From assembly GCA_017418445.1 (NCBI GenBank), contig JAFONM010000003.1, positions 1 to 50,409 on the forward strand: a stretch of 50,409 nucleotides of DNA, read 5' to 3'. The notes under the pieces were generated by a model, which saw only the letters and a list, made by a program, of their open reading frames with translations, had not been told where the DNA came from and searched no databases. Position 1 is the stretch's first letter. Every line of letters begins with the position of its first letter. This document shows, one piece after another, positions 4,322 through 50,409 of the stretch. The translations under genes and the position numbers were made by a program. This DNA is from Kiritimatiellia bacterium. Lineage in GTDB: Bacteria > Verrucomicrobiota > Kiritimatiellia > RFP12 > UBA1067.

Positions 4322-4340
4322 ATTCACTCCCATGAGGAAT

Positions 4341-12418: not shown

Positions 12419-12425
12419 GGGTCTG

Positions 12426-12441: not shown

Positions 12442-12464
12442 CGGACTTGCCGCGGCGAGGGCGG

Positions 12465-23093: not shown

Positions 23094-23212
23094 CAGCGTG
23101 GCAAGACGCGCACTGGAGAAGAGCATGCGTGGAAAATGTCGCTGGCCGCGCTCGCGTAGGTGAGGACAAATGATCCGAACCTTTGATTTTCACCCCACAA
23201 AACCACGTTTTT

Positions 23213-23221
23213 TGGTATAAT
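23213..23221 (+). promoter_or_regulatory. extended -10 box TGGTATAAT, 9 nt from ATG 23231
   Basis: TGGTATAAT-GCCCGAGCC-ATG. No Shine-Dalgarno sequence can fit in the gap. Confidence 0.5.
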
Positions 23222-23230
23222 GCCCGAGCC

Positions 23231-31496: not shown

Positions 31497-31497
31497 G

Positions 31498-32364: not shown

Positions 32365-32420
32365 ACCAGGCAGGCGGAGCGGAGGCTTCCGCGCGCGTAT
32401 TGCCCGTACGGCGTGTAATT

Positions 32421-32429
32421 TGATACAAT
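32421..32429 (+). promoter_or_regulatory. extended -10-like box TGATACAAT
   Basis: ATG 32430 abuts the box. A second in-frame ATG at 32439 lies 9 nt downstream. Confidence 0.4.
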
Positions 32430-32438
32430 ATGGGAATC

Positions 32439-34658
32439 ATGAAAGCGCGCATTCTCTGTCTGACCGCACTGTCCGTTCTCGCCGTCTCCGTGGCGTCGGC
32501 GGGCGAGTCGCTGCTGCTCAAGCTTTCCGCCGACCGAATGGCGGCGGACAACATCACCGGCGCGATGGTCGCGACGGGCAACGTGTCCGCCACGCTCGGT
32601 CCGTTCAGGCTCAGGTCTCCCGGGGCGTCGAAGGTCGGCGACGTCTACGAGTTCGGCGAGAACACAGTCGTCACGACCTGCACAAACGCTCCCGGACACG
32701 AGCACTGGTTCGCGCGCGGCGGCGTAAGGGTTTCGATGGAAGACGGCGCCAATGAGGTCGTCGGACGCAACATGTCCGTCGGCTCGTACGGCGTCCCGCT
32801 CCTCTGGTTCCCGTACTGGTGGCAGCCGATCAACACGGACTACGGCTGGCGCGTCGTCCCCGGCTACAGGAGCCGCTGGGGCGCGTACCTCCTCACGAAG
32901 TACGTCTACACGCTCGCGGGATCCTTCGAGGAAGGCGCGTGGGGACTCGGCGGATCGACGCGGTTCGACCTCCGCTACAAGAACGGCGTCGCGGTCGGGC
33001 AGTCCGTGCGCTGGAACCTCGGCGACTTCGGCAGGGGCAAGTTCAAGGCCTACTACGCGTGGGACGAGGATGCGGACCGCTACGACCGCGGATGGAATTC
33101 GCGCCATCGCTACCGCAACTGGGGCACGGAGGTGGACCGCGATCGCTATGCGTTCTCGCTCGAGCACAAGTGGGAGCCGACCGAGCGCGATGTCGTCCGG
33201 CTTTCCGGCGCCTATATGAGCGACTCGCACTTCAAGCGCGACTTCCTCAGGGACGGGCTGTTCGGCGTAGGCAACCGCTATCCGGACGCCGACCGCAACG
33301 AGCTTGCGTGGGAGCACGCCGAGAAGTACGTCGTCGGCGGAATCGGCGTCTCGGGTCCGCTCAACGACATCTACGGCGGCGTCGCGCGCATGCCCGAGGC
33401 CTGGTTCGACGTCCAGCCCCAGCCCGTCTTCTCGCTTCCGCTGAACTACGAGTCGCGCACGACCCTCGGCTGGCTCGACCGCGAATACGCCAAGCACGGC
33501 GACAAGCGCACGTCCCTGCCGTTCCGCTACGATCCAGGCGAATGGGCGAGCTACCAGGTCTTCAGGGCGGATTCCTACCACAGGCTGACGGCGCCGTTCC
33601 GCGTCGCGGACGTCGTCTCGGTCGCACCGAGGGTCGGGGTCCGCGGAACCTGGTGGTCCGATTCCGGCGCCGAGGTCCTCGACGGCGCGCACCGCGCCCG
33701 CTCGATGGACGATCCGGTCCTCAGGTCCATCGTCGAGGGCGGCGTCACCTTCGCCGCGCGCGGCGTCGCGTGGCTCGGCGGGGAGGAGCGCTGGCAGCAC
33801 GTCCTCGAGCCCTATCTCGACGTCCTCGCGCAGGAGGCGCAGTACTCGGGACTCCGCCGCGACGCCCGCGCCTACGTGTTCGACTCGACGGACGGCTCGG
33901 CCGACTGGCTCGACCAGTTCGCGGGCAGGAGCCGCAACCTTCCGTACACCTGGTACGGCATGACGCCCGGGCTGCGCAACGCCTTCAGGAAGGCGGACGA
34001 GAAGGGACGCCTCCGCACGGTCTTCGACTTCGACTTCTACGCCGCGGTGCAGTTCAACGACACCTCGTGGACCGACGGCGGCCGCTACCATCGCCTCTCG
34101 CGCGACCAGGAGAATCCGAACTACGGTCGCGACGGCAGGGTGACGGCGAACCCCGGGGTCCGCGCGCGCTGGTTCGCGACGAAGGAATCCTCCCTGATGT
34201 CCCGTGCGGAGTGGGACGGGGAGAACGACACGCTCGCATACGCGGACGTCGCCTTCTCGCATCGCCTTGCGGATTCGTTCAGGTACGAGATATCGTATTC
34301 GGCGCGCGACCAGCGCTGGTGGGACTACTCGTCGACGCCGTACGATCCCGCGCAGATGCGCAACGAGGACTTCAACTGGGCGAAGTTCTCCTACCTCCAG
34401 GTCGGCTTCGAGCACGAGGTGTGCGACGCCTTCGCGTGGGGGCCGTTCGTCCGCTGGGACTTCCGCGAGAACGAGCTCGACGAGATCGGCTCCTGGTTCG
34501 ACATCCGGACGGACTGCCTCGGGTTCCGCTTCTCGCTTTCCTACGAGAACGACTATCGGCGCATAGACGGTTCCGAGCACGACGACGACTGGCGCGCAAG
34601 CTTCGGCGTCTACCTCCGTGCGTTTGGACCCTCCATGGGCACCATGTTCGGCGACTGA
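32439..34658 (+). CDS. lptD: LPS-assembly outer-membrane protein LptD-like
   Basis: Signal peptide MKARILCLTALSVLAVSVASA. OstA-like N-terminus (LSADRMAADNITGAMVATGNVSATLGPFRL...TTCTNAPGHEHW). A long Tyr/Trp/Arg/Asp-rich beta-barrel-type region follows. The alternative start is 32430. Confidence 0.65.
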   Translation: MKARILCLTALSVLAVSVASAGESLLLKLSADRMAADNITGAMVATGNVSATLGPFRLRSPGASKVGDVYEFGENTVVTTCTNAPGHEHWFARGGVRVSMEDGANEVVGRNMSVGSYGVPLLWFPYWWQPINTDYGWRVVPGYRSRWGAYLLTKYVYTLAGSFEEGAWGLGGSTRFDLRYKNGVAVGQSVRWNLGDFGRGKFKAYYAWDEDADRYDRGWNSRHRYRNWGTEVDRDRYAFSLEHKWEPTERDVVRLSGAYMSDSHFKRDFLRDGLFGVGNRYPDADRNELAWEHAEKYVVGGIGVSGPLNDIYGGVARMPEAWFDVQPQPVFSLPLNYESRTTLGWLDREYAKHGDKRTSLPFRYDPGEWASYQVFRADSYHRLTAPFRVADVVSVAPRVGVRGTWWSDSGAEVLDGAHRARSMDDPVLRSIVEGGVTFAARGVAWLGGEERWQHVLEPYLDVLAQEAQYSGLRRDARAYVFDSTDGSADWLDQFAGRSRNLPYTWYGMTPGLRNAFRKADEKGRLRTVFDFDFYAAVQFNDTSWTDGGRYHRLSRDQENPNYGRDGRVTANPGVRARWFATKESSLMSRAEWDGENDTLAYADVAFSHRLADSFRYEISYSARDQRWWDYSSTPYDPAQMRNEDFNWAKFSYLQVGFEHEVCDAFAWGPFVRWDFRENELDEIGSWFDIRTDCLGFRFSLSYENDYRRIDGSEHDDDWRASFGVYLRAFGPSMGTMFGD

Positions 34659-38695: not shown

Positions 38696-40231
38696 ATGTC
38701 CGCTAAACTTCTTTTGAGGATCGGCGCGCAGGTAAGCGAGGTGCAGATTCCCGAGACCGGTATGACTCTTGGCCGGAGCGCCGAGGGCAACGACCTGCAG
38801 ATCAACGATCCGAGCATTTCAGGCAACCACTGCCGCTACATTCCGCAGAACGGACAGTGGGTCCTGCAGGACCTCGGCAGCACCAACGGGACGTTCGTGA
38901 ACGGGACCCAGATACCGCCCGCCCCGCAGGCCGTCCTCGTCTCGAACGGCGACAAGATCAAGATGGGCGACATCCTCGCGGACTTCGTCTGCTCCGCGCC
39001 CGCGGCGAAACCCGCGGCCGCCGCGCCCGCACAGCAGCAGCGCCAGGCGGCGCCCGCGCAGGCCGCGAAACCCGCCGCCCCGGCCGCCCCCGCCGCTCCC
39101 GCCGCGAAGCCCGCCGTCAAGGCCGCCCCCGGGAAGAAGGGCGCCGCAGGCGCGAAGGTCTCGGAGAGGAAGTCCACCTGGACCGCCCCCGCCCTCCACA
39201 TCGACAACACTCCTCCGCCGGAGATGTCCGCGGACGACGTCGCGCTCATCAGGCTCCTCAACGAGAAGTACTCCGCCGCCAAGGAGCAGCTCTCGAAGGT
39301 CGTCATCGGCCAGATGCCCGTCATCGAGGAAGTCCTCACCGCCGTGTTCGCCCGCGGCCACGCGCTCCTCATGGGCGTCCCCGGTCTCGCCAAGACACTC
39401 CTCATCGCGACGCTCTCGAAGGTCCTCGACCTCAGGTTCAAGCGCGTCCAGTTCACCCCCGACCTGATGCCTTCGGACATCACCGGCACGGACGTGCTCG
39501 AGGAAGACAAGGCGTCCGGTGCGAGAAAGTTCCGCTTCGTCGAGGGCCCTGTCTTCACGAACATGCTTCTCGCCGACGAGATCAACCGTACCCCGCCGAA
39601 GACCCAGGCGGCCCTCCTCGAGGCCATGCAGGAGCACCACATCACAGTCGGCTCCCACACGTACGACCTCCCCGAGCCGTTCTTCGTCCTCGCGACCCAG
39701 AACCCGATCGAACAGGAAGGCACGTACCCCCTGCCGGAAGCGCAGATGGACCGCTTCCTCTTCAACATCATCGTCCACTATCCGCAGCACGACGACGAGA
39801 TGACGATCATCCGCAACGTCACGTCCGGCACGAAGACGAAGCTCGAGAAGATCCTCGACGGCGAGACTGTCATCAAGCTCCAGGACGTCGTCAAGCGCGT
39901 CCCCGTCGCGCCGCACGTCATCGAGTACGCCTGCAACCTCGCGCGCGCCACCCGTCCGAAGGAACCGGACGCGCCGGACTTCGTCAAGGAGCTCGTCGGC
40001 TGGGGCGCGGGTCCGCGCGCCGGCATCTCCCTCATCACCGCGGCGAAGGCCCGCGCGATCCTCCACGGACGCCACCACACCACGATGGGCGACGTCTCCG
40101 CGGTCGCGATGCCGGTCCTCCGCCACCGCGTCATCACGACCTTCGCGGCCGAGGCCGCCGGCGTCTCCTCGGACGACATCGTGAACATGCTCCTCAAGGC
40201 CCTCAAGCCCGACGTCGGACTCGACATCTGA
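38696..40231 (+). CDS. FHA domain - MoxR-type AAA+ ATPase fusion (511 aa)
   Basis: The N-terminal FHA signature is GRSAEGNDLQINDPSISGNHCRY...LGSTNGTFVNG. An ~70-aa Ala/Pro/Lys-rich linker follows. The MoxR (AAA_3) core has GVPGLAKT (Walker A), LLADEINR (Walker B) and ATQNPIEQEGTYPLPEAQMDRF. Confidence 0.85.
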   Translation: MSAKLLLRIGAQVSEVQIPETGMTLGRSAEGNDLQINDPSISGNHCRYIPQNGQWVLQDLGSTNGTFVNGTQIPPAPQAVLVSNGDKIKMGDILADFVCSAPAAKPAAAAPAQQQRQAAPAQAAKPAAPAAPAAPAAKPAVKAAPGKKGAAGAKVSERKSTWTAPALHIDNTPPPEMSADDVALIRLLNEKYSAAKEQLSKVVIGQMPVIEEVLTAVFARGHALLMGVPGLAKTLLIATLSKVLDLRFKRVQFTPDLMPSDITGTDVLEEDKASGARKFRFVEGPVFTNMLLADEINRTPPKTQAALLEAMQEHHITVGSHTYDLPEPFFVLATQNPIEQEGTYPLPEAQMDRFLFNIIVHYPQHDDEMTIIRNVTSGTKTKLEKILDGETVIKLQDVVKRVPVAPHVIEYACNLARATRPKEPDAPDFVKELVGWGAGPRAGISLITAAKARAILHGRHHTTMGDVSAVAMPVLRHRVITTFAAEAAGVSSDDIVNMLLKALKPDVGLDI

Positions 40232-40245
40232 CCTGACCGATTCCG

Positions 40246-41187
40246 ATGGCCGGAATGGAAAATCAGCCCGCGTACATGAAATGGCTGCCGCCGAAGACGA
40301 CGGCGACCATCGCCCGTTGCGAATTCTTCGGGCGCACCATGAAGTCGGGCTTCATCTCCGGCAAGCACAGAAGTCCCAAGAAGGGCTTCTCCGTCGAGTT
40401 CGCCGAACACCGCCAGTACGTACCGGGGGACGATCTCAGGAACCTCGACTGGAAGGTGCTCGCGAGGAAGGACCGTCTCTACATCCGCCAGTACGAGGAG
40501 GAGACGAACCTCCGCGCCACGATCCTCGTCGACTGCTCCGGCTCCATGGCCTACGCGGGCGACTGCGCCGCGGAGGTCGACGGACGGCGCCTCTCGAAGT
40601 ACGACTACGCGCGCTACCTCGCGGCGGGGCTCACCTACATGCTCGCAGGACAGCAGGACGCGGTCGGACTCGTCCTCTTCGACACGAAGATGAGGAAGTA
40701 CCTCCCCGCGAAGTCCCAGGCCTCGCAGGTCCGGCACATCCTCGAGTTCATGGACACGACCGAGTGCGGCGGGGACACCGCCCCCGCTCCCGTCTTCGAC
40801 GAGATCGCCGAGCGCATCCCGTCCCGCGGACTCGTCGTCATCATTTCGGACCTCTTCGACGCGAACGTGGACGCGCTGCTCAAGTCGCTCCACCACTTCA
40901 ACTATCGCAGGCACGAGATAGTCGTCCTCCACACGATGGCGGAGGAGGAGCTTCACTTCGACTTCGACGGGCACATGCACTTCAGGGACCTGGAGTCCCC
41001 GGCCGAGCTCCTCCTCGACGCGAAGTCCATCCGCGCGGGCTACCTCGACCAGGTCAACAGGTTTCTCAAGAAGATCGGCGACGGCGTGAGGAAGATGAAC
41101 GCCGACTACGTGCCGATAAACACGAAGACGCCGTTCGACACGGTGCTTACCGAATACCTGAGCCGCCGCCGCTCGGGAGGAGCATGA
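40246..41187 (+). CDS. DUF58 family protein (vWA-like, MoxR partner)
   Basis: FAEHRQYVPGDDLRNLDWKVLARKDRLYIRQYEEE is the DUF58 hallmark. It sits 14 nt after the MoxR gene. Confidence 0.85.
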   Translation: MAGMENQPAYMKWLPPKTTATIARCEFFGRTMKSGFISGKHRSPKKGFSVEFAEHRQYVPGDDLRNLDWKVLARKDRLYIRQYEEETNLRATILVDCSGSMAYAGDCAAEVDGRRLSKYDYARYLAAGLTYMLAGQQDAVGLVLFDTKMRKYLPAKSQASQVRHILEFMDTTECGGDTAPAPVFDEIAERIPSRGLVVIISDLFDANVDALLKSLHHFNYRRHEIVVLHTMAEEELHFDFDGHMHFRDLESPAELLLDAKSIRAGYLDQVNRFLKKIGDGVRKMNADYVPINTKTPFDTVLTEYLSRRRSGGA

Positions 41188-41199
41188 GGGAGCCGCGAA

Positions 41200-44169
41200 A
41201 TGCAGTTCGTAAACTTCCTGATGATATCCGGACTCCTCGCGGTGGCGATCCCCGTCATCATCCAGCTCCTTACCCGCAAGAACGCCTCGATAGTCCACTG
41301 GGGCGCGTGGCTCTTCCTCGACCTCACGATGAAGCGCCGCCGCAGGAAGGTGCTTCTCGAGGACATCCTGCTCCTCGCGTGCCGCTGCCTCATACCGGCC
41401 CTCGCGGCCCTCGCGTTCGCGCGTCCGTTCATCCGTCCCGACTCGCCGGTTCCGTGGGCGATCGTGATGCCGGTGCTGATTCTCTCAATCATCCTCTTCG
41501 GAGTCTCCTTCGCGCTCTGGCGCTATCCGCTGTGGCGCTGGCTCGCGATGGCCGCCGGCATCGCGCTCTTCGCCCTCGTGCTTGCGGCGATCATCTTCGA
41601 ACGCCAGCTCAACCTCAGGCGCTTCGGCTCCGGCGCCTCCAAGGACGTCGCGATAATCGTGGACGGCTCGGCCTCCATGTCGATGGTGAACGACGGCAAG
41701 TCCAACTTCGAGCGCGGACTCGACGAGGCTCGCAGGTACATCGAGCAGGCTCCCCGCGGAACCGCGTTCTCGATCGTCCTCGGCGGACCCGTCCCGCAGG
41801 TGATGAACCCCGTCCCGATCGCCGACAGGCGAATCCTCCTCAACACTCTCGACCGCCTAACGCCCGCGAACGGCACGATGCAGATATCCCCGAACCTCAC
41901 GGCCGCCGCCGTGACGCTCGCGCAGGGACACAACGCCGTCAAGCAGATCGTCATCGTCGGCGACGGACAGACCGTCGGCTGGCACCTCGACAACCTCGAG
42001 CGCTGGAGCGCGATCCGCCGCGTCTTCGCGCAGCTCAAGACGAGCCCGATCCTCGTCTGGCGCACCCTCCCGCTCCCGACATCCATCCGCAACCTCGCGA
42101 TCGCGGAGGTCCGCCCCTCGCGCGACGTCGTCGGCACGGACCGCGAGGCGAAGATCGACGTCACCGTCGTCAACGCCGGAACCGAGGCCGTGACGCCCTC
42201 GGAGGTGACGCTCAAGATCGGCGCGGACGTCAGGAACGCCCGCAACCTCCACCAGCTCGACCCCGGCGAGAGCCAGACGTTCAGCTTCCCGTACCGCTTC
42301 AAGCATCCTGGCGGAACCATCATCACCGCACACGTCGCGGCCGAGGACGACCTCCCCGTCGACGACACCTACCGCTACGTCCTTCCCGTCATGAAGTCCC
42401 TCAAGGTCCTCGTCGTCGACGGCGAGTCCTCGGCGGACATCTTCCGCCGCGGGTCGACCTACGTCTCCCTCGCGCTCCGCCCCGAGTTCGAGCACCTCGT
42501 GTCCGGCGGCGGCTCCGCCAGGCGGCAGCCCGCCGGCGAGGGCGAGGTCGAGAAGGGCTACCTCCTCGACACGAAGGTCGAGGACATAACGGTCGCCGGA
42601 CGCCGCACCGGGTTCGGAGGCTTCGCGGCCGTCATCCTCATGAACGTCGAGAGGCTCCCCGAGAACCTGATGGCCAGGCTCGCGACGTATGTCGAGCACG
42701 GCGGCGGACTCTTCGTCATGCCGGGTCCGCGCACCGACCGCGACCTCTTCAACTCCTGGAAGCTCGGCAACGAGAACGTCCTCCCGCTCGCGCTCGGCAA
42801 GACCGTCGTGAACGTGCCTCCGGCGGAGGCGGGAGCCGAGGACGGGGAGGATCCGAAGGCGAAGACGTTCGCGGAACTCGACACCGCCACCTTCACCGGC
42901 GACGCGATACGCAAGTTCCGCACCGGAACCGACCTCGGCGGACTCGCGCCGCCGAGCTTCGTCGAGCTGAAGGAGGGCATCTCCGGCGGGGCGGACGTGA
43001 TAGCGCGCTTCTCCACGGGCCAGCCGTTCCTCGCGATGCGCGCGCTCGGACGCGGCACCGTGTGCCTCTCCGCGATCACCTTCGACCTCGATTCCGGAAT
43101 CGTCGCGAAGAGCGGATTCGTCCCGCTCATGCACGAGCTCGCCTACCGCCTCGCGCGACCCGTCTCCGTGCGCCTCGACATCGCGCCGTCGGACGGCGTC
43201 ACCGTCCTCCTCGCGCCCAGCGCCGCGAGCTCGAACGAGACCGCGGACGAGCAGGGGCTCATGGGCTACTACTACCCGAAACCGAACTACGCCGGCAAGC
43301 CCGTGGTCAGGAAGGATCCCCGCATCGACTTCTGGTGGAGGGGCGCCGCCCCCATGAAGAACTTCCCCGGGGACAACTTCAGCGTGAAGTGGCGCGGATC
43401 CATCCAGGCTCCCAAGACCGGCTACTACACGTTCGACTTCCATCAGGACGACCGGTTCAGGTTCCAGATCGACGGACGTTCCGGCAAGAGGTTCGAGCTC
43501 GAGGAGGGCAGGAGGTATTCGTTCAACGCGTCTTTCGAGGAGGACTGGGGCGCCGCCATCGCGGTGCTCATGTGGACTACGCCTGACGGGAAGAAGGAGA
43601 CCGTTCCCTCGTCCGCGTTCTCGACCTTCGGCAGCGACAGCGGCACCGTCGTCGAGATAAAGGATCCGCACGGCGAGCCGTTCTACGGCGAGATCGTCCA
43701 GAAGGAGGACGGCGTGTTCCTGCACATCTCGCAGAGCGTGATGCCGGGAATGTATACGGTCGCCGAGATTCCCGACTTCCTCAGGGAGGACCTCGGCGGA
43801 GTCATGACTCCCGACGAGACGATCGTCCTCAGCGTCGTCGCCGGCGTGGAGGAGTCGCGCATGGAGGCCGTGACGACCGAGCAGATAGACGAGCTCGGCA
43901 GGTACGTCCAGATCTCCACCGCGACCAAGGAGGAGGACGTCGTCAAGGCGATCGGCGGCGAGTCCTTCGGCAAGGAGATCTGGCGCACACTCGCGATGGC
44001 CGCGTTCATCTTCCTCATCCTCGAGGTCGTCCTCGCCCGCTGGATCGCGATAAGCCGCCGTACGGGGGAGAACATCCAGGTCGATTTCAGGAACGACAAG
44101 CTCCAGGCCTCGGAGGCCTTCAAGCGCTCCGTGGCCGCCCTCAACGCAAAGGAAGGAGCGGGAGGATAG
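41200..44169 (+). CDS. BatA_N double-TM / vWA / GATase1-like / PA14 multidomain membrane protein (989 aa)
   Basis: The N-terminus MQFVNFLMISGLLAVAIPVIIQLLTRK is BatA_N/TIGR02226-like. A vWA MIDAS motif is present (IIVDGSASMS). There is a GATase-like block (AAVILMNVERLPENLMARLATYVEHGGGLFVMPG) and a PA14-like block (GLMGYYY...FSVKWRGSIQAPKTGYYTFDF..DDRFRFQIDG). A C-terminal TM helix closes the protein. Confidence 0.75.
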   Translation: MQFVNFLMISGLLAVAIPVIIQLLTRKNASIVHWGAWLFLDLTMKRRRRKVLLEDILLLACRCLIPALAALAFARPFIRPDSPVPWAIVMPVLILSIILFGVSFALWRYPLWRWLAMAAGIALFALVLAAIIFERQLNLRRFGSGASKDVAIIVDGSASMSMVNDGKSNFERGLDEARRYIEQAPRGTAFSIVLGGPVPQVMNPVPIADRRILLNTLDRLTPANGTMQISPNLTAAAVTLAQGHNAVKQIVIVGDGQTVGWHLDNLERWSAIRRVFAQLKTSPILVWRTLPLPTSIRNLAIAEVRPSRDVVGTDREAKIDVTVVNAGTEAVTPSEVTLKIGADVRNARNLHQLDPGESQTFSFPYRFKHPGGTIITAHVAAEDDLPVDDTYRYVLPVMKSLKVLVVDGESSADIFRRGSTYVSLALRPEFEHLVSGGGSARRQPAGEGEVEKGYLLDTKVEDITVAGRRTGFGGFAAVILMNVERLPENLMARLATYVEHGGGLFVMPGPRTDRDLFNSWKLGNENVLPLALGKTVVNVPPAEAGAEDGEDPKAKTFAELDTATFTGDAIRKFRTGTDLGGLAPPSFVELKEGISGGADVIARFSTGQPFLAMRALGRGTVCLSAITFDLDSGIVAKSGFVPLMHELAYRLARPVSVRLDIAPSDGVTVLLAPSAASSNETADEQGLMGYYYPKPNYAGKPVVRKDPRIDFWWRGAAPMKNFPGDNFSVKWRGSIQAPKTGYYTFDFHQDDRFRFQIDGRSGKRFELEEGRRYSFNASFEEDWGAAIAVLMWTTPDGKKETVPSSAFSTFGSDSGTVVEIKDPHGEPFYGEIVQKEDGVFLHISQSVMPGMYTVAEIPDFLREDLGGVMTPDETIVLSVVAGVEESRMEAVTTEQIDELGRYVQISTATKEEDVVKAIGGESFGKEIWRTLAMAAFIFLILEVVLARWIAISRRTGENIQVDFRNDKLQASEAFKRSVAALNAKEGAGG

Positions 44170-47100
44170 ATGGACCAGAACCTAGTGAGAACCGATCTGC
44201 TGCCGATGGTCATGCCGACCGCGGTCCTCGTCGGGCTCGCCCTCGCGTCGACAGGCGCGTGGATCGCTGCGCACTATCTCGTCAAGCGCTTCCTCCGCAG
44301 GTTGAGGGCCGCCTACCGCGTCCTCCTCGTGATGCCGATCGGCATCATCTCCTCGTGGCTCGTCCTCCAGGCCTCCGCGAGGTTCCTCTTCCTCGCGACG
44401 AGCTGGTCCCTCTTCTTCTCCGCGATTGTCGCGGCGGCGGCGCTCGAGTCCGTCGCGGCCATATACGAGCACGAGAAGGAGCGCGTCCCCAGGAAGCACG
44501 GACGCGCCATCGTCGCCCTCAGGCTCGCCGCGATCGCGATCCTCTTCTTCATGATCATGCAGCCGGTCCTCATCGGCGAGTCGAAGCGCACCGTGAGAAG
44601 CCGCGTGATCGTCCTCGCGGACGACTCCGCCTCCATGCACTTCGTCGACAGGCAGTGGACCGACGCGGAGCGCGTCGACGCGGCCGTCGCCCTGGGCAGG
44701 ACCGGGACGGCCAAGCCGCCCGCGAGGGACTTCTGCGACCTCGTCGCGCGCGCGGATTCCCTCGCCGGCGAGATCGAGACCGTCCGCGAGCTCGCCTCCG
44801 TCGGCGGCAAGGACATGCCGAAGGACGCGATGGAGGCGGGCGCGAAGCTCGTCTCGGACCTCGCGGCGGAGCTCGACAGGTCCGTCCCGAAGCTCTCCCA
44901 GTCGCGCAAGGACTACATCGCGGAGCTCGGGCGCCTCGACAGCCACCTCAAGTCGAAGCTCGTCCCCGTCATGAAGAGGCTCGCCGGCACCGTCGCCGCC
45001 GGGGACGCGGCGGGATCCGGCGCCGCGGCGAAGGAGGCTTCCGACGCGCTCGCGGAGGCGCGTCCGGCGATGCTGAAGGCCCAGGACCTCCAGGCGCTCG
45101 CGTGGTACGACGCCCTCTCGAAGAAGGACCGCGACGAGGTGATCGCGGCGACCGAGGTTCCGCGCGCGAAGATCGTCCGCGCCCTGATGAACCACGGCGG
45201 GGAAGATGCGATACTGAAGAAGCTTTCGGATCGCTATGACGTGGACGTCTTCAGATTCGGTCACGGCGCGATGCAGGACGGATCGCTCCTAGACGAGCGC
45301 GAGCACTCCGAGCGGTTCGAGGCGGCCCTCTCCCCGCGCGACATACAGTTCCGCTCCGCGACCGACATGACGCGCGCACTCGAAACGGTGATGAGGGAGA
45401 TTCCGACCGAGGAGATCTCGTCCGTCATATTCTTCACGGACGGACGCCACACCGGCGACGCGGGCGTCGAGTCCGTGGCGCGCAAGCTCGGCTCGATGGG
45501 CGTGTCCATATCGTCCGTCATCGTCGGCGGCACGACTCCTCCGTTCGACCTCGCGATCGCCGCGGTGCAGGCCCCCGAATCGATCTTCGTCGGCGACAAG
45601 GTCCGCTTCACCGTCAACGTCGCGGCGACGATGGCCAGCGGCAGGCAGGCCGAGGTGACGCTCATGGCGGGCGAGGAGAAGATAGACTCGAAGGTCCTCG
45701 ACATAACCTCCGACGACTGGCAGGAGGAGGTCCGCTTCAAGCACGAGCCGGAGAAGCGCGGAATTTACAAGTACACCGTCGACCTCAGGCTCCTCGACAA
45801 CGAGCTCTTCGAGGACAACAACAGGTGGGAGGTCTCGGTCTCCGTCTCCGACGACCGCACGAACGTCCTTCTCGTCGACAACCGTCCGCGCTGGGAGTTC
45901 CGCTACCTCAGGAACCTCTTCTACGGGCGCGACAAGTCGGTGCACCTCCAGGACTACCTCATCACGCCCGACACCTGCACTCTTCCGGACGGCGTCCACC
46001 TCGATCCGCTTCCCGCCGCGTCCGCGAGCCGCGAGTTCGGCGACTCCGAGTCCGGCGCGTTCCCGCAGGAGTCCGAGGAATGGCGCAAGTTCGACCTCAT
46101 CATCATCGGCGACCTCTCCGACAGCCAGCTCTCCGCCGAGACGGTCAGGATGATCAAGTACTGCGTCGAGGAGCGCGGCGCGCTTCTCGTCGTCATCGCC
46201 GGACCCGAGTCGATGCCGTACAAGGTGACGAATCCGGACTTCAGGGCGATGCTGCCCATCGAATACGATCCCGACGGACAGGAACACCGCACTCCGCCCG
46301 AGGAGGAGTACACGTTCTCCCTCACCCCGGCCGGCCGCGGGCATCCCGTCATGGCCCAGTCCTCGTCCTCCTCCGAGAACGAGGAGATATGGGGCGAGCT
46401 CCCTGACTTCCACTGGCGCATTCCGATCAAGGGCGTGAAGGCGGGCTCGGAGGTCCTCGCCTACGCGCGCTCGAAGAAGGATGCCGAGGCCGGCGACGCC
46501 GCGGTCGCGCAGTCCATCGCCGCCACCATCGAGGAGGATCCCGAGGCCGCCGTCAAGCGCCTCGAGGACATCCGCAACGAGCAGGCCCGCAACGCCGTCG
46601 TCGTCGCGAGGACGTGCGGACGCGGCAAGGTGCTGATGATGAACACGGACCGCATGTGGCGCCTCAGGTACCGCGTCGGCGACACGCGCCACCACCGCTT
46701 CTGGGGACAGGTCGTCCGCTGGGGCGCGGGCGAGAAGCTCCAGACCGGCAACGAGTTCGTCCGCCTCGGCACGGACCAGCTCCGCTACGACGTGGGCGAG
46801 CCGATCAAGGTCTACGCGAGGTTCCTCGACTACAACTACGGCGGACTCCAGGACCTCGAGCCGACGGTCGTCCTCACGGACATGACCGGCGGCCACCGCA
46901 ACGAGTATCCGCTCCGATTGAGGCCGGACTCCAACGGATTCTACGAAGGGGAGATTCCGGGAATCGGCGACCCCGGCGCCTACCAGGTCGAGCTCGTCTG
47001 CGAGGGCGCGATCGAGAAGATCGGCCACAACTTCCCGCGCCACCTCAAGACCCGCTTCGTCATCGTCATGGCGAAGCAGCCCGTCGAGACCGTCAACATC

Positions 47101-47322
47101 ACCGCGAGCCGCGACGCCCCGACGAGGATGGCGAAGGCGACGAAGGGACGCGTGATGACGCCGACGGAATGGACCGGGCTCACCGACGACTTCGGTGCCG
47201 GCAACAAGACGATGAGGGACCGCACCGAGTACCAGCTCTGGTGCATGCCGCCGCTGTTCATATTGCTGATGGGGCTCCTTACCGCGGAGTGGATAATAAG
47301 GAAGCGCGCCAAGCTCGCGTAG
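44170..47322 (+). CDS. vWA-domain membrane protein with a GATase1-like (DUF1355-type) module (1050 aa)
   Basis: Starts on the base after the upstream stop. It has N-terminal TM helices, a MIDAS-like VLADDSASMHF, FFTDGRHTGD, FDLIIIGDLS...GALLVVIAGP, and a C-terminal TM helix (LWCMPPLFILLMGLLTAEWII). Confidence 0.65.
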   Translation: MDQNLVRTDLLPMVMPTAVLVGLALASTGAWIAAHYLVKRFLRRLRAAYRVLLVMPIGIISSWLVLQASARFLFLATSWSLFFSAIVAAAALESVAAIYEHEKERVPRKHGRAIVALRLAAIAILFFMIMQPVLIGESKRTVRSRVIVLADDSASMHFVDRQWTDAERVDAAVALGRTGTAKPPARDFCDLVARADSLAGEIETVRELASVGGKDMPKDAMEAGAKLVSDLAAELDRSVPKLSQSRKDYIAELGRLDSHLKSKLVPVMKRLAGTVAAGDAAGSGAAAKEASDALAEARPAMLKAQDLQALAWYDALSKKDRDEVIAATEVPRAKIVRALMNHGGEDAILKKLSDRYDVDVFRFGHGAMQDGSLLDEREHSERFEAALSPRDIQFRSATDMTRALETVMREIPTEEISSVIFFTDGRHTGDAGVESVARKLGSMGVSISSVIVGGTTPPFDLAIAAVQAPESIFVGDKVRFTVNVAATMASGRQAEVTLMAGEEKIDSKVLDITSDDWQEEVRFKHEPEKRGIYKYTVDLRLLDNELFEDNNRWEVSVSVSDDRTNVLLVDNRPRWEFRYLRNLFYGRDKSVHLQDYLITPDTCTLPDGVHLDPLPAASASREFGDSESGAFPQESEEWRKFDLIIIGDLSDSQLSAETVRMIKYCVEERGALLVVIAGPESMPYKVTNPDFRAMLPIEYDPDGQEHRTPPEEEYTFSLTPAGRGHPVMAQSSSSSENEEIWGELPDFHWRIPIKGVKAGSEVLAYARSKKDAEAGDAAVAQSIAATIEEDPEAAVKRLEDIRNEQARNAVVVARTCGRGKVLMMNTDRMWRLRYRVGDTRHHRFWGQVVRWGAGEKLQTGNEFVRLGTDQLRYDVGEPIKVYARFLDYNYGGLQDLEPTVVLTDMTGGHRNEYPLRLRPDSNGFYEGEIPGIGDPGAYQVELVCEGAIEKIGHNFPRHLKTRFVIVMAKQPVETVNITASRDAPTRMAKATKGRVMTPTEWTGLTDDFGAGNKTMRDRTEYQLWCMPPLFILLMGLLTAEWIIRKRAKLA

Positions 47323-47332
47323 GAGGTTGCAG

Positions 47333-50300
47333 ATGAAATTCCTGTCCAGACTTTTCAACAGAACGCGTCCGCAGCTCATCTCCGAGCGGATCCCCTCCGC
47401 CACGTACGCGCAGCTGCCGAAGGAGATATCCTCGAAGCTCAAGGCGGCCGCCCGCCGCGTCAGGCGCATCGTCCTCGTCCGCGGACTCTGCGCGACGATC
47501 GCCGTCTTCACGGTGGCGATACTCATCGTCATGGCCGTCGACGCGATGGTCGTCATCTTCTCCCCGTTCGTCCATTGGGGGCTCTGGCTCGCGGTCGTCG
47601 CGGCAACCGTCGTCACCGCCTGGCGGACCATCGTCCAGCCGCTTTCGATTCCGCTGACCCCCGCCCGCATCGCGGCTCTCGTCGAGGCGAACCATCCCGA
47701 GCTCGAGGAGCGCCTCTCGTCTGTCGTCGAACTCCTCGGCATGGGACAGGAGCTCAAGGCGTCCGCCCGCCTCATGGAGGTCCTCGCGCAGGACGCCGTC
47801 ACCGACGTCAGGAAGGTCTCGGTCAGGAAGGACTTCTCCGCCCGCACCGTCAAGCCTCGCTTCCTCGCGGCGCTCATAGCCATATCGATCGTCGCGCTCC
47901 TCGTCCTCGCGTTCCCGCGCGCGATGTCGCGACTCATAATCCGCGCCGTCATCCCGACCGCAGAGGTGGACAACGTCTATGCGGACGCCCTCAAGGTCAC
48001 GCCCGGCGACGCCGTGATCCTGCAGGGCACCCCGTTCACCGTGCAGCTCGCCGTGGAGTCCGGCTATCCGTCCCGTGCGTACGTGAGGACGCGCGGCATG
48101 GAGTCGAGGAGCGAGACCGCGGAGCGCATGACCCAGACCTCCGCGGAGGGCGGGGGCGGTCCGACCTACTACTCGTTCAGCTATCCGCTCGTCCAGAAGT
48201 CCTTCGCCTACCGCGTCCACTGCGGGAGCGCCCTCACGCGCGAGTTCAAGGTCAAGGCCCTCGCTGCGCCAGCGTACACCAATCTCGAGGTGAAGCTCCG
48301 GTATCCCGCATACACGAAGCGCGAGCCGGAAGTCGTCAGGGAGCAGAAGCCCGCCCCGATCTCCACCGTCGCGGGGACGAAGATCGAGATTTCCGCGGAA
48401 CCCAACAGGACGGACCTCAGGGAAGAGCTCCTCCTCCCCGGCGACAGGGCGATCGAGCCGTCGTCCGAGGGCGACGGACGCTTCACGTTCAAGTTCGACC
48501 TCGAGGACATGAGGGGACAGTGGGGAATCCAGCTCTCGGACGACTACGGCTTCTCCAACCAGGTCGAGTTCGCCTCCATCGAGGTCGTCAAGGACGCCGC
48601 TCCAGAGATAAAGCTCCTCGCTCCGAAGACGCTCGCGATGGAGCTTCCTACGTTCGGCGCGATTCCGTTCGAGTACAGGATTACGGACGACTTCGGCTTC
48701 TCCTGCGTCCGCGTCGAGATCACCGGCGAGAACGGACAGTACGAGGAGGCGATGTCCCTCGAGCCAGCCGAGACCGAGCGCCGCGTCTGGACCGGCGCCG
48801 GCACGATCGAGCTCTCGAAGTTCAACCTCGACAAGCGCCGCGCGGTGCGCTTCCGCCTCGCCGCCGCCGACAACTATCCCGAGGAGCTGGGCGGACCCCA
48901 CGTCTCCTATTCCGAGGACATGTCCGTCCGCATCGCGCAGGACGCGACATCGCTCGCCGGCAAGGCCCTCTCGGAGCAGATCAAGAACGCGAATCTCACC
49001 GTCACCGAGGTCGTCAAGAAGCTCACGGCCGCGAAGAAGGACGCCGGCGTCGCCATCAGGGGCTTCGGACTCGGCGATACCAACGCGGGAATGCACAACA
49101 AGGGCTTTGAATCCCTCGACGCCGCGAAGAAGGACCTCCTCGAGGGCGAGAAGATGCTCGGCGACCTCGTGAAGGAGCTCGACAGCACGATGCTCACAGC
49201 GGGCGGCGACATACTGGAGAAGGCGCTCGACGACTACCTGGTCCCGACGCGCCGCTTCTGCGAGGACATCTACCTCCTGCAGGGCGACGACAAGGAGAAG
49301 GCCGCGAAGACCGAAGAGCTCGAGAAGAAGATCCAGGAGACGATCGACGCGCTCACCAAGGCGCAGAAGGACTTCGACAAGGCCGCGGAGGACGCGAAGG
49401 ACCTCCAGAAGCTCGCCGAGCTCGCCGCCCGCGAGAAGGCGCTCGCCGAGATGGCCGAGAAGGGCGAGATCGACCCCGAGCAGTTCGCAAAGATGCAGAA
49501 GGCGCTCCTCGACGAGTTCAACAAGGAGTTCGAGGACAAGCTCAAGGATCCGCTCCAGAAGGAGAAGGACCAGGTCTCCGCGTTGAAGGAGAAGGGCGAG
49601 GACCTCAAGAAGCAGCAGGAGGAACTCCAGAAGGACGCCGCCGCGCTCAAGGGCGACGACCCGGAGGCGAAGGCCGAGGCCGAGAAGGACCTCCGCGAGA
49701 AGACGAAATCGATGCCGTCCGAGACCTCCGCCGAGGACCGCCTCGCTGAACTCGAGGACCGCATCGCCGAGGACATCGACAAGCTCGCCAAGGAAGCCGA
49801 CAAGATGTCCGACGAATTCGACAGGAAGAACGCCCGGAACGCCGAGAACGCCGATTCGCCCGAGAACGCCGAGAAGGCCGGCAAGGAGGCCTCCGAGAAC
49901 GCCAGGGAGGCGTCCCAGAGCGCCCAGGATGCCGCGAAGGACGCGAAGGAGGCGGCCGACGCCCTCAAGGACGGCAACCAGGAGTCCGCAAACGAGAACA
50001 TGGACCAGGTCAAGGAGAACCTCGACAGGACGGGCGAGAAGCTCGACGAGACGATGTCCAGCCTCGACCAGCAGTCGGAGGCGATGCAGGGCGACGTCTC
50101 CGACTACAGGGACGCGCAGTCCGACATGCAGGCCGCGACCGAAGCCGCCGAGCAGGCCGCGCAGGAGGCCGCGGAGGCCGCGCAGAACGCCGAGGGCAAT
50201 CCCGAGAACTGGGACGGACAGAAGGACCCGAACGCCGAGGTCCCGGACTCCGGCATGGACGACGGCCAGCGCGACCCCAACCAGCAGTGGGACGGACAGA

Positions 50301-50409
50301 AGGACCCGAACGCCGAGGTTCCGGACTCCGGCATGGACGACGGCCAGCGCGACCCCAACCAGCAGTGGGACGGACAGAAGGACCCGAACGCCGAGGTTCC
50401 GGACTCCGG
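47333..50409 (+). CDS. membrane/coiled-coil protein, DUF4175-like, 3' end outside window (>1025 codons)
   Basis: Not in the supplied ORF track because it has no stop in the window. AGGAGG at 47321..47326 is followed by a 6-nt gap and ATG 47333. Hand translation of this frame to base 50409 shows no stop. It has two N-terminal TM helices, a beta-rich middle, a long E/K/A/D coiled-coil-type tail and tandem repeats at the end. Confidence 0.65.
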   Translation, partial: MKFLSRLFNRTRPQLISERIPSATYAQLPKEISSKLKAAARRVRRIVLVRGLCATIAVFTVAILIVMAVDAMVVIFSPFVHWGLWLAVVAATVVTAWRTIVQPLSIPLTPARIAALVEANHPELEERLSSVVELLGMGQELKASARLMEVLAQDAVTDVRKVSVRKDFSARTVKPRFLAALIAISIVALLVLAFPRAMSRLIIRAVIPTAEVDNVYADALKVTPGDAVILQGTPFTVQLAVESGYPSRAYVRTRGMESRSETAERMTQTSAEGGGGPTYYSFSYPLVQKSFAYRVHCGSALTREFKVKALAAPAYTNLEVKLRYPAYTKREPEVVREQKPAPISTVAGTKIEISAEPNRTDLREELLLPGDRAIEPSSEGDGRFTFKFDLEDMRGQWGIQLSDDYGFSNQVEFASIEVVKDAAPEIKLLAPKTLAMELPTFGAIPFEYRITDDFGFSCVRVEITGENGQYEEAMSLEPAETERRVWTGAGTIELSKFNLDKRRAVRFRLAAADNYPEELGGPHVSYSEDMSVRIAQDATSLAGKALSEQIKNANLTVTEVVKKLTAAKKDAGVAIRGFGLGDTNAGMHNKGFESLDAAKKDLLEGEKMLGDLVKELDSTMLTAGGDILEKALDDYLVPTRRFCEDIYLLQGDDKEKAAKTEELEKKIQETIDALTKAQKDFDKAAEDAKDLQKLAELAAREKALAEMAEKGEIDPEQFAKMQKALLDEFNKEFEDKLKDPLQKEKDQVSALKEKGEDLKKQQEELQKDAAALKGDDPEAKAEAEKDLREKTKSMPSETSAEDRLAELEDRIAEDIDKLAKEADKMSDEFDRKNARNAENADSPENAEKAGKEASENAREASQSAQDAAKDAKEAADALKDGNQESANENMDQVKENLDRTGEKLDETMSSLDQQSEAMQGDVSDYRDAQSDMQAATEAAEQAAQEAAEAAQNAEGNPENWDGQKDPNAEVPDSGMDDGQRDPNQQWDGQKDPNAEVPDSGMDDGQRDPNQQWDGQKDPNAEVPDS
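50210..50409 (+). repeat. 78-bp in-frame tandem repeat, at least 2.6 copies, running off the window
   Basis: Units start at 50210, 50288 and 50366. They differ by a single C/T substitution (GAGGTCCCG vs GAGGTTCCG). Each encodes WDGQKDPNAEVPDSGMDDGQRDPNQQ. Confidence 0.9.

What the first reader, a model, noticed from the sequence alone, without database searches (positions are those of the whole stretch)
38696..50409. Five-gene MoxR/vWA (Bat-like) operon with unusual domain additions: the top candidate for an undescribed envelope system
The operon encodes, in order:
- an FHA-MoxR fusion ATPase
- a DUF58 protein
- a BatA_N/vWA/GATase-like/PA14 protein (989 aa)
- a vWA/GATase-like membrane protein (1050 aa)
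- a >1025-codon DUF4175-like coiled-coil membrane protein

All five are on one strand with gaps of 14, 12, 0 and 10 nt. The backbone (MoxR, DUF58, proteins with the TIGR02226-type double-TM N-terminus, DUF4175) is the widespread but functionally unresolved Bat/aerotolerance-type module. MoxR ATPases are thought to chaperone vWA partners. This version adds three things: a phosphothreonine-reader input (FHA), a carbohydrate-binding-type PA14 domain, and a repeat-expanded acidic tail. As inference only, I suggest a membrane-anchored, kinase-regulated complex that senses or binds glycans.
Basis: partly seen in the sequence, partly recalled or inferred. Interest (0 to 1): 0.7.

Follow-up and report, generated by a model that had tools for sequence, protein, structure and literature searches.

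The report
PVC-wide MoxR/vWA envelope operon, FHA-fused variant
This is a real operon, but it is one lineage's version of a gene cluster conserved across Verrucomicrobiota and Planctomycetota: a cytoplasmic MoxR ATPase and DUF58 protein paired with giant membrane-anchored periplasmic proteins. Only the phosphothreonine-reading FHA domain fused to the ATPase is lineage-specific, and the function is still untested.

Summary
The gene coordinates, order and gaps (14/12/0/10 nt) are exact. Pfam confirms FHA, AAA_3 and AAA_lid_2 in g1, DUF58 in g2, and BatA_N/TIGR02226, VWA_2, CARDB and PA14 in g3. Three calls are weaker:
- The g4 vWA hit is sub-threshold.
- "GATase-like" is supported only by profile-profile homology.
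- g5 scores 25.7 bits against DUF4175, below the 27.3 cutoff.

The operon does not stop at five genes. A conspecific contig shows g5 complete at 1256 aa. It is followed, with a 4-nt overlap, by a sixth conserved gene for an exported squalene-cyclase-like α/α-toroid protein.

The window is a Kiritimatiellae MAG contig. Among the 80 best of at least 596 related loci in genome representatives:
- 48 of 53 testable loci keep MoxR–DUF58–g3–g4 in order.
- 41 of 57 have g5 next, and 36 of 57 have g5 then g6.
- 46 of 53 keep the PA14 region, so PA14 is ancestral rather than an addition.

Planctomycetota have the same core without PA14 or FHA. FHA occurs in 6 of 53 loci, all of the Kiritimatiellia/Lentisphaerae type.

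Best reading: a Bat-like MoxR/vWA envelope module whose large domains face the periplasm, with phosphothreonine-dependent control of the ATPase in this lineage. It is a new variant of a known, functionally unresolved kind. Interest is moderate.

The parts
38696..40231 (+). g1: FHA-MoxR fusion ATPase, 511 aa, with no TM segment (cytoplasmic).
   Evidence: Pfam AAA_3 E 1.5e-63, FHA E 1.3e-19, AAA_lid_2 E 1.4e-16. Walker A GVPGLAKT and Walker B LLADEINR are read directly from the translation.
38765..38968 (+). FHA domain of g1 (aa 24-91).
   Evidence: G26, R27, S42, H45 and N64 are at least 95% conserved in 116 FHA-MoxR homologues.
38993..39235 (+). Ala/Pro/Lys/Gln-rich low-complexity linker between FHA and the AAA+ core. 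Its length varies between strains.
   Evidence: Tandem 9- and 21-nt repeats at 39054-39116. Conspecific contigs give g1 lengths of 511, 512, 518 and 521 aa.
39359..39763 (+). AAA_3 (MoxR-proper) ATPase core of g1 (aa 222-356).
40246..41187 (+). g2: DUF58 protein, a vWA-like fold with a DxSxS motif (LVDCSGSM) and no TM segment (cytoplasmic).
   Evidence: PF01882 E 9.8e-40, weak VWA_2. Sequence.
41200..44169 (+). g3 (989 aa): four N-terminal TM helices (the first two are BatA_N/TIGR02226), vWA, CARDB Ig-like, GATase1-like α/β domain, PA14, a β-rich region, a C-terminal TM helix and a basic tail.
   Evidence: D155/S157/S159 MIDAS residues are invariant in 16 orthologues.
43249..43608 (+). PA14 domain of g3 (aa 684-803).
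   Evidence: PF07691 E 8.5e-14. Best solved relative is the RsgI3 PA14 domain, 6qe7, E 1.2e-18.
44170..47322 (+). g4 (1050 aa), a distant paralogue of g3: four TM helices, a vWA domain split by a helical insertion of about 190 aa (aa 165-355), an Ig-like domain, a GATase1-like α/β domain, an MG2-like β-sandwich and a C-terminal TM helix.
   Evidence: AF2 model, pLDDT 75.8. hhalign to g3 96.7%. hhalign to a PF07090-bearing protein 99.9%. Alpha-2-macroglobulin MG2 domain E 5.5e-4.
47333..50409 (+). g5, truncated by the contig end (full length 1256 aa in L002), DUF4175-like: basic cytoplasmic N-terminus, three TM helices with a conserved cytoplasmic helical hairpin (HPELEERL), three Ig-like domains (aa 220-535), then a long acidic coiled-coil and low-complexity region.
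   Evidence: AF2 model, pLDDT 87.9. Foldseek finds Ig-chain matches. DUF4175 25.7 bits. Full-length copy.
50210..50409 (+). 78-bp tandem repeat (26-aa unit, WDGQKDPNAEVPDSGMDDGQRDPNQQ) inside the g5 tail. The contig ends in it.
   Evidence: 2.6 copies, 99% identity. L001 and L004 have N-gaps at the same place.

Best explanation
**What it is.** This is the Kiritimatiellia version of a gene cluster conserved across the PVC group. It belongs to the MoxR-proper/DUF58/vWA (Bat-like) class of envelope modules.

**Shown**
- The cytoplasmic pair is an AAA+ MoxR ATPase (g1) and a MIDAS-bearing DUF58 protein (g2).
- g3 and g4 are paralogous inner-membrane proteins. Each has four N-terminal TM helices, a large multi-domain body (vWA, Ig-like, GATase1-like, another Ig-like domain, plus PA14 in g3) and one C-terminal TM helix.
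- g5 is a DUF4175-like protein with three TM helices, three Ig-like domains and a long coiled-coil or disordered stalk.
- A sixth gene, just beyond the window, encodes an α/α-toroid protein with a signal peptide.

**Inferred**
- The large bodies of g3, g4 and g5 face the periplasm.
- There they form a membrane-anchored scaffold with two MIDAS sites and a glycan-binding PA14 module.
- The scaffold probably binds an envelope polymer or polysaccharide and contributes to envelope organisation or integrity.
- The MoxR hexamer, with DUF58 as its vWA adaptor, acts from the cytoplasmic side. It would work on the short basic loops and tails of g3 and g4 and on the conserved cytoplasmic hairpin of g5, to assemble or remodel this scaffold.
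- In Kiritimatiellia and some Lentisphaerae, the N-terminal FHA domain tethers or gates the ATPase through a phosphothreonine. That mark would be written by a Hanks-type kinase encoded elsewhere in the genome.
For: **Domains.**

**Topology**
- Positive-inside pattern and TM counts.
- CARDB, PA14 and MG2-like are domain types typical of extracytoplasmic proteins (my background knowledge; hits).
- g6 has a signal peptide.
- The BatA homologue BB0173 has its vWA domain facing the periplasm by experiment (PMC5700661).

**Conservation and order**
- 48 of 53 loci keep MoxR-DUF58-g3-g4.
- 41 of 57 have g5 after g4, and 36 of 57 have g5 then g6.
- The same core occurs in two Planctomycetota loci.
- The g4 family has 14,755 clusters at 50% identity.

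**Co-transcription**
- Gaps are 0 to 14 nt, and g5 and g6 overlap by 4 nt.
- The only terminator-like site on the + strand in L002 lies after the tRNA genes downstream of g8.

**MIDAS.** DxSxS is invariant in g3 and g4 and present in g2.

**FHA.** The pThr-contact residues are conserved.

**Precedents**
- The Bifidobacterium PFNA operon clusters a Ser/Thr kinase, a PP2C phosphatase and an FHA protein with an MRP MoxR and DUF58. Its kinase phosphorylates the MoxR (PMC8430577).
- Rhizobium RL3499, an MRP MoxR, is needed for membrane integrity and cell morphology (PMC3893208).
Against: - No experiment exists for any PVC member, so the function is extrapolated from distant Bat and RL3499 systems.
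- How a cytoplasmic AAA+ ATPase would act on periplasmic vWA domains is unexplained. It rests on short cytoplasmic segments.
- Topology is predicted, not measured.
- No kinase or phosphatase lies in the 50-kb window.
- The GATase1-like and DUF4175 assignments are sub-threshold for the window proteins themselves.
- PA14 is absent from the Planctomycetota versions, so glycan binding by g3 cannot be essential to the core mechanism.
- About a quarter of loci with enough downstream sequence lack g5 and g6 after g4 (16 of 57).
Confidence: 0.55

Rival explanations
1. This is the first reader's model: a kinase-regulated signalling complex that senses extracellular or periplasmic glycans. The PA14 domain would act as the sensor and the FHA-MoxR as the transducer.
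For: - The PA14 domain is most similar to the polysaccharide-sensing PA14 of anti-sigma factor RsgI3.
- The Planctomycetota versions carry an NPCBM carbohydrate-binding-module gene next to the cluster.
- The FHA domain is intact.
- The genome neighbourhood is rich in glycoside hydrolases.
Against: - No output domain was found in any of the six proteins: no sigma or anti-sigma factor, DNA-binding domain, cyclase or kinase.
- FHA is absent from most lineages that keep PA14: 6 of 53 against 46 of 53.
- PA14 is absent from the Planctomycetota versions.
- The stoichiometric, scaffold-like architecture looks structural rather than regulatory.
Confidence: 0.15
2. It is a MoxR-vWA based conflict or anti-phage system, of the type of the MoxR-vWA-β-propeller ternary systems.
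For: g1 gives a secondary hit to PF20030 bpMoxR (E 3.8e-9). vWA partners are present.
Against: - The AAA_3 hit is far stronger (E 1.5e-63).
- There is no β-propeller and no effector domain.
- PADLOC finds nothing for any of the six proteins.
- The cluster is conserved in order across two phyla and sits among housekeeping genes (lpxK, hom, lysC). That pattern is unlike a mobile defence island.
- The paper on those systems does not describe FHA-MoxR fusions.
Confidence: 0.03
3. It is part of a surface adhesion, gliding or secretion apparatus. g5 would be a long stalk or adhesin, working together with the GldF/GldG-like ABC system encoded 7 kb upstream.
For: - g5 has tandem Ig-like domains that match adhesin and S-layer Ig chains by Foldseek, plus a long repetitive stalk.
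- A fused ABC-2/GldG-like protein (ABC_transp_aux) and a DUF4340 protein lie upstream.
- vWA MIDAS domains are classic adhesion modules.
Against: - g5 is anchored in the inner membrane by N-terminal TM helices. No outer-membrane or secretion component is present.
- The ABC genes are separated from the operon by lpxK, hom and lysC.
- The Ig-chain matches are generic, with TM-scores of 0.13 to 0.26.
Confidence: 0.1

Closest known systems
Bacteroides/Spirochaete Bat (aerotolerance) operon: moxR, DUF58, batA, batB, batC, batD, batE
   Same: - An MRP-type MoxR followed by DUF58, then inner-membrane proteins with a BatA_N double-TM N-terminus and a MIDAS vWA domain.
- The vWA domain faces the periplasm by experiment in Borrelia BB0173 (PMC5700661).
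- The function is also unresolved.
   Different: - No TPR (BatC), BatD or SH3 (BatE) proteins are present.
- The vWA proteins here are three times larger, with Ig-like, GATase1-like, PA14 and MG2-like domains and a second C-terminal TM helix.
- A DUF4175-like stalk protein and an exported α/α-toroid protein are added.
- The MoxR carries an FHA domain.
Rhizobium leguminosarum RL3499-RL3502 type operon (MRP MoxR, with an envelope-integrity phenotype)
   Same: An MRP MoxR operon linked to membrane integrity and cell morphology (PMC3893208). From memory only, and not checked here, its last gene is a DUF4175/TIGR02302-type membrane protein and its third a TIGR02226-type protein. That would match the g3 and g5 positions.
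   Different: - That operon has four genes rather than six.
- It has no PA14, no g4-type second giant vWA protein, no α/α-toroid gene and no FHA.
- TIGR02302 does not hit g5.
Bifidobacterium PFNA operon (pkb2, fn3, aaa-atp, duf58, tgm, prpC, fha)
   Same: An MRP MoxR and DUF58 are coupled to Ser/Thr-phosphorylation components. These include an FHA protein and a kinase that phosphorylates the MoxR (PMC8430577).
   Different: - FHA is a separate gene there and is fused to the MoxR here.
- The partner proteins are FN3 and transglutaminase, not BatA-type vWA or DUF4175 proteins.
- It is a Gram-positive context.
MoxR-vWA chaperone pairs (RavA-ViaA, NorQ-NorD, CbbQ-CbbO)
   Same: An AAA+ MoxR hexamer works with a MIDAS vWA adaptor to mature or remodel a specific target complex (PMC3893208, PMC9976466). 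MoxR with DUF58 is the likely equivalent pair here.
   Different: Those belong to other MoxR subfamilies, have soluble cytoplasmic targets, and lack giant periplasmic partners.

Membership tests
MoxR AAA+ ATPase, MRP (MoxR-proper) subfamily | AAA_3 (PF07726) core above the gathering score, plus AAA_lid_2 | tested here: met
   212.9 bits against cutoff 27. Lid domain 60.4 bits against 22.7.
MoxR AAA+ ATPase, MRP (MoxR-proper) subfamily | Intact Walker A and Walker B motifs | tested here: met
   GVPGLAKT and LLADEINR are read in the translation.
MoxR AAA+ ATPase, MRP (MoxR-proper) subfamily | An adjacent gene for a vWA or DUF58 partner | tested here: met
   The DUF58 gene lies 14 nt downstream.
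FHA domain | PF00498 above the gathering score | tested here: met
   70.9 bits against 20.7.
FHA domain | Conserved pThr-contact residues (loop Arg, SxxH, NG) | tested here: met
   G26, R27, S42, H45, N64 and G65 are at least 95% conserved in 116 homologues.
FHA domain | Actual phosphothreonine-peptide binding, and identity of the ligand | not testable with these tools
   Needs biochemistry.
Bat (aerotolerance) operon | moxR and DUF58 followed by BatA/BatB-type proteins (BatA_N double TM plus vWA) | tested here: met
   g3 has BatA_N, TIGR02226 and VWA_2. g4 has an analogous 4-TM plus vWA layout, but no BatA HMM hit.
Bat (aerotolerance) operon | BatC (TPR), BatD (oxygen-tolerance family) and BatE (SH3) genes | tested here: not met
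   No TPR, BatD or SH3 hit in any operon protein at E of 0.01 to 1.
Bat (aerotolerance) operon | An aerotolerance or oxidative-stress phenotype | not testable with these tools
   Uncultured MAG.
DUF4175 (PF13779) | Score at or above the gathering threshold | tested here: inconclusive
   Full-length g5 gives no hit. The N-terminal 556 aa give 25.7 bits against 27.3, E 3.6e-6. Fourteen of 26 relatives hit, best E 6.9e-14.
GATase1_like (PF07090) domain | A direct HMM match | tested here: not met
   No hit for the excised g3 or g4 segments at E up to 5.
GATase1_like (PF07090) domain | Homology to bona fide members by profile comparison | tested here: met
   The g4 profile against P0146 (PF07090 at aa 418-583) gives probability 99.9%, E 5e-31, spanning that region. 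g3 against g4 gives 96.7% over the same domain.
PA14 domain | PF07691 above the gathering score | tested here: met
   52 bits against 24. RsgI3 PA14 E 1.2e-18.
MoxR-vWA-β-propeller ternary conflict systems | A β-propeller component and an effector-bearing vWA protein | tested here: not met
   No propeller or effector domains. PADLOC is empty. The bpMoxR hit is only secondary to AAA_3.

The most novel reading that the evidence does not exclude
The six-gene cluster is a PVC-lineage-wide trans-membrane machine that nobody has characterised. A cytoplasmic AAA+ motor, switched by phosphothreonine in Kiritimatiellia, would drive the assembly or conformational state of a giant periplasmic scaffold. 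That scaffold combines glycan-binding and MIDAS modules (g3, g4), the g5 stalk and the g6 toroid. It would organise the unusual PVC cell envelope, for example by tethering or spacing peptidoglycan or surface polysaccharide.
Probability: 0.15. Interest if true: 0.75.

Novelty: new variant of a known kind. Interest (0 to 1): 0.42.

Why it matters
MoxR/DUF58/vWA (Bat-like) operons are among the most widespread bacterial gene clusters that still lack a mechanism.

This analysis shows that PVC bacteria share an enlarged version: six genes, two paralogous giant vWA proteins, a stalk protein and an exported toroid protein. It is found in hundreds of species representatives, and its largest component (g4) has no Pfam family of its own. 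The g4 family has about 15,000 clusters at 50% identity.

The FHA fusion in Kiritimatiellia gives a concrete, testable handle on how the ATPase is controlled. It parallels the kinase/FHA/MoxR linkage seen in Bifidobacterium.

The cluster also appears to occur in cultivable, genetically tractable lineages such as Planctomycetota, Verrucomicrobiales and Akkermansiaceae. A knockout there could assign a function to the whole class.

Tried and rejected
- **BLASTP of g3 against g4** was not significant (E 0.71). Only profile-profile comparison revealed the paralogy.
- **Whole-model Foldseek of g4** gave only multi-domain GH2/GH42 matches with TM-scores near 0.1. These reflect shared Ig-like and α/β sub-domains and carry no functional meaning. 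The model could not be cut into domains with the tools available.
- **Direct PF07090 scan** of the excised g3 and g4 segments was negative.
- **Literature searches** found no description of the PVC cluster. They covered MoxR/DUF58/FHA, DUF4175, Akkermansia with MoxR or DUF58, Akkermansia transposon screens, Planctomycetes with BatA, and MoxR with PVC phyla. Only 9 held papers mention MoxR and DUF58 together.
- **A remembered lead**, Kamneva et al. 2012 on PVC gene content, turned out to concern DUF1501 clusters and not this one.
- **Cluster look-up of the 'Akkermansia' orthologues** returned no names or locus tags. One 'A. muciniphila' MAG label (L049) looks unreliable, so no claim is made about the type strain or its Tn-seq data.
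- **Defence-system reading** was rejected.
- **g7 (GDSL lipase) and g8**, downstream of g6, are found only in conspecific contigs. They are not counted as part of the system.
Full report

Yes. Five + strand ORFs lie exactly where stated:
- g1 38696-40231
- g2 40246-41187
- g3 41200-44169
- g4 44170-47322
- g5 47333 to the window end

The gaps are 14, 12, 0 and 10 nt. In this 65% GC sequence many spurious ORFs overlap them, but GC3 of 0.90-0.93 identifies these frames as the coding ones.

Pfam and NCBIfam confirm most domain calls:
- g1 has FHA (aa 24-91), AAA_3 (aa 222-356) and AAA_lid_2.
- g2 is DUF58.
- g3 has BatA_N/TIGR02226, VWA_2, CARDB and PA14.

Three calls are softer:
- The g4 vWA hit is below threshold (19.5 to 22.8 bits). 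An invariant DxSxS motif is nevertheless present.
- "GATase-like" has no direct PF07090 hit. The g4 family profile aligns end to end with P0146, which carries PF07090 at aa 418-583, at probability 99.9% and E 5e-31. g3 aligns to g4 over the CARDB-like and α/β region at probability 96.7% and E 3.9e-10. g3 and g4 are therefore distant paralogues that share this domain.
- Full-length g5 hits nothing. Without its low-complexity tail it scores 25.7 bits on DUF4175 against a cutoff of 27.3, and 14 of 26 relatives hit that family.

**2. What lies beyond the window?**

The window is an NCBI MAG contig of a Kiritimatiellae bacterium. P0147, labelled 'IIZ70_00290, partial', sits on a contig of 50409 bases.

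Conspecific metagenome contigs carry the same operon. In L002, g5 is complete at 1256 aa. After the acidic coiled coil come the 26-aa repeats, a run of roughly 100 residues of Q/G, and a conserved C-terminal motif, VPAEYRGLVKEYFDQL.

The window ends inside a 78-bp tandem repeat at 99% identity. Two other assemblies have N-gaps at the same spot. The contig break is therefore an assembly effect of the repeat.

g5 is followed by a sixth gene with a 4-nt overlap. It encodes a 344-aa protein with a signal peptide and squalene-hopene-cyclase-type QW repeats, which indicate an α/α toroid. A GDSL lipase gene, a small membrane-protein gene and two tRNA genes come next. The only terminator-like site on the + strand in the L002 region scanned (bases 1-15000, covering g1 through g8) lies after those tRNAs.

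**3. How special is the architecture?**

Not very, within its phylum.

A scan of GTDB species representatives with the g4 profile found at least 596 loci. The best 80 come from Kiritimatiellia, Lentisphaeria/Victivallales, Verrucomicrobiales, Akkermansiaceae and Roseibacillus, plus one MAG labelled Brocadiaceae.

I mapped each window domain onto these loci with tblastn:

| Feature | Loci with feature / loci testable |
|---|---|
| MoxR, DUF58, g3, g4 in order | 48 / 53 |
| g5 directly after g4 | 41 / 57 |
| g5 then g6 after g4 | 36 / 57 |
| PA14 region of g3 detectable | 46 / 53 |
| FHA N-terminus on MoxR | 6 / 53 |

Three shorter loci also show FHA. All FHA-bearing loci are of the Kiritimatiellia, Lentisphaerae or Victivallales type, apart from the Brocadiaceae-labelled MAG. 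Verrucomicrobiales MoxRs are plain proteins, mostly about 335-350 aa.

g5 orthologues range from about 860 to about 2000 aa, so a long variable tail is the norm. A minority of loci (16 of 57) stop after g4. Some loci fuse g3 and g4 into one protein (L079; P0145 and P0209 as proteins).

Two Planctomycetota loci have this order: PQQ β-propeller, MoxR, DUF58, BatA/vWA, a g4-like protein, a g5-like protein, a small protein, a prenyltransferase-like protein, and an NPCBM protein. They have no FHA and no PA14, but a different carbohydrate-binding module sits next door.

An exhaustive HMMER search with the g4 profile finds 14,755 clusters at 50% identity with E up to 1e-3, and 4,023 with E up to 1e-30. 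None of the g4-family members listed carries a precomputed Pfam domain covering most of its length.

The FHA-MoxR fusion itself appears in well over 100 clusters at 90% identity. Where named, they are labelled only 'AAA family ATPase [Kiritimatiellae]'.

**4. Anatomy and topology**

g1 and g2 have no TM segments. g1 has intact Walker A and B motifs. g2 has a DxSxS motif.

g3 and g4 each have four N-terminal TM helices and one C-terminal TM helix. Strongly basic loops follow TM1 and TM3, and a basic tail follows the last TM. That pattern places the N-terminus outside and the large body in the periplasm.

Other evidence agrees with a periplasmic location:
- The domain types CARDB, PA14 and MG2-like are typical of extracytoplasmic proteins (my background knowledge).
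- g6 has a signal peptide.
- The vWA domain of the BatA homologue BB0173 was shown experimentally to face the periplasm (PMC5700661).

The AF2 model of g4 (pLDDT 75.8) shows these parts in order:
- a vWA domain split by a helical insertion of about 190 aa (aa 165-355), which the roughly 900-aa orthologues lack;
- an Ig-like domain;
- an α/β domain;
- an MG2-like β-sandwich (alpha-2-macroglobulin MG2, E 5.5e-4).

The AF2 model of the g5 N-terminal 556 aa (pLDDT 87.9) shows these parts in order:
- a basic cytoplasmic N-terminus;
- two TM helices;
- a conserved cytoplasmic helical hairpin (HPELEERL; A114, P122 and L128 are invariant);
- a third TM helix;
- three Ig-like domains (aa 220-535);
- the start of the coiled coil.

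Foldseek matches for g5 are generic Ig chains.

**5. Mechanism (inference)**

The system divides into a cytoplasmic engine and a periplasmic assembly. The engine is the MoxR hexamer with DUF58 as its vWA adaptor, by analogy with RavA-ViaA and NorQ-NorD (PMC3893208, PMC9976466). The periplasmic assembly is anchored in the inner membrane. It offers two invariant MIDAS sites, a PA14 glycan-binding module, Ig-like spacers, a long stalk and a soluble toroid protein.

The only physical links across the membrane are the short basic loops and tails of g3 and g4 and the conserved cytoplasmic hairpin of g5. These are the likely docking sites for MoxR and DUF58.

By analogy with RL3499, which affects membrane integrity and cell morphology (PMC3893208), and with the stress phenotypes of Bat and MoxR mutants, the most likely role is envelope organisation or maintenance.

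The FHA domain keeps its pThr-contact residues in 116 homologues. It is joined to the ATPase by a repeat-derived Ala/Pro-rich linker whose length varies between strains. It probably recruits or gates the ATPase through a phosphothreonine mark.

There is a precedent for this coupling. The Bifidobacterium PFNA operon clusters a Ser/Thr kinase, a PP2C phosphatase and an FHA protein with an MRP MoxR and DUF58, and its kinase phosphorylates the MoxR (PMC8430577). No kinase or phosphatase is encoded in this window.

**6. Rivals**

- **Glycan-sensing signalling complex.** It lacks any output domain, and FHA and PA14 do not co-vary across lineages.
- **Conflict or defence system.** This is excluded by conserved vertical synteny next to housekeeping genes, the absence of propeller and effector domains, and an empty PADLOC search.
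- **Adhesin or gliding apparatus.** This is weakly suggested by the Ig chains and an upstream GldF/G-like ABC system. But g5 is anchored in the inner membrane, and three housekeeping genes (lpxK, hom, lysC) separate the ABC genes from the operon.

**7. Novelty and verdict**

The class (MRP MoxR, DUF58 and BatA-type vWA proteins) is known and functionally unresolved. The enlarged six-gene PVC form is not described in any paper I could find. Its components sit in databases as hypothetical, 'VWA domain-containing' or 'AAA family ATPase' proteins.

The window's operon is an ordinary member of that PVC cluster. Its distinguishing feature is the lineage-specific FHA fusion. I rate it a new variant of a known kind with moderate interest. 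Its main value is to define a large, conserved and testable cluster, and to provide a regulatory handle on it.

Noticed in passing
L002:12081-13115 (just beyond the window's 3' end): A sixth conserved operon gene overlaps the g5 stop by 4 nt. It encodes an exported 344-aa protein with squalene-hopene-cyclase-type QW repeats (α/α toroid) and a degenerate DxDD-like stretch (RDSDTS). It follows g5 in 36 of 57 related loci. In Planctomycetota it lies one gene further downstream.
   Followed up: partly
window 50210-50409; L001 and L004 at the same place: The contig ends inside a 78-bp tandem repeat at 99% identity, and other assemblies have N-gaps there. In L002 a 21/42-bp CAG-rich array encoding a Q/G run of roughly 100 residues follows. 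The true tail length is unresolved by short reads and probably varies between strains.
   Followed up: partly
window 39054-39116: The g1 FHA-to-AAA+ linker is built of 9- and 21-nt tandem repeats. g1 is 511, 512, 518 or 521 aa in conspecific contigs, and orthologues range from 465 to 570 aa because of this linker.
   Followed up: partly
window 44662-45234 (g4 aa 165-355): The g4 vWA domain is interrupted by a helical-bundle insertion of about 190 aa. The roughly 900-aa Kiritimatiellia orthologues lack it. Its role is unknown.
   Followed up: no
L087:15249-16571; L088:20768-21883: In Planctomycetota versions of the cluster, g3 lacks PA14, but a separate NPCBM (carbohydrate-binding module) gene follows the toroid gene. 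A PQQ_2 β-propeller gene precedes moxR. This may be non-orthologous replacement of the glycan-binding part.
   Followed up: no
window 28377-34658: Three adjacent genes lie just upstream of lpxK: a 1039-aa fusion of ABC-2 permease, DUF7088 and a GldG-like ABC_transp_aux domain; a DUF4340 protein; and a 742-aa protein with no Pfam hit. ABC_transp_aux is, from memory, in the same fold clan as the GATase1-like domain of g3 and g4.
   Followed up: no
window 4448-12418: Two tandem giant paralogues (1325 and 1311 aa) have only a GH2 sugar-binding/Ig-like hit. They sit amid other glycoside hydrolase and hydrolase genes, which fits a polysaccharide-degrading lifestyle.
   Followed up: no
window 1-2000 and 22001-24000: GC content drops to 0.50 and 0.59, against about 0.65 elsewhere. 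The first 2 kb also has a strong positive GC skew (0.16). This could be foreign or non-coding DNA and was not examined.
   Followed up: no
L059, L075, L079; P0145, P0209, P0211: In some lineages g3 and g4 appear fused into one protein of 1340 to 2000 aa. That fits the idea that the two act as one unit. For L059 and L075 the merged ORF also overlaps neighbouring ORFs, so those two are less certain.
   Followed up: no
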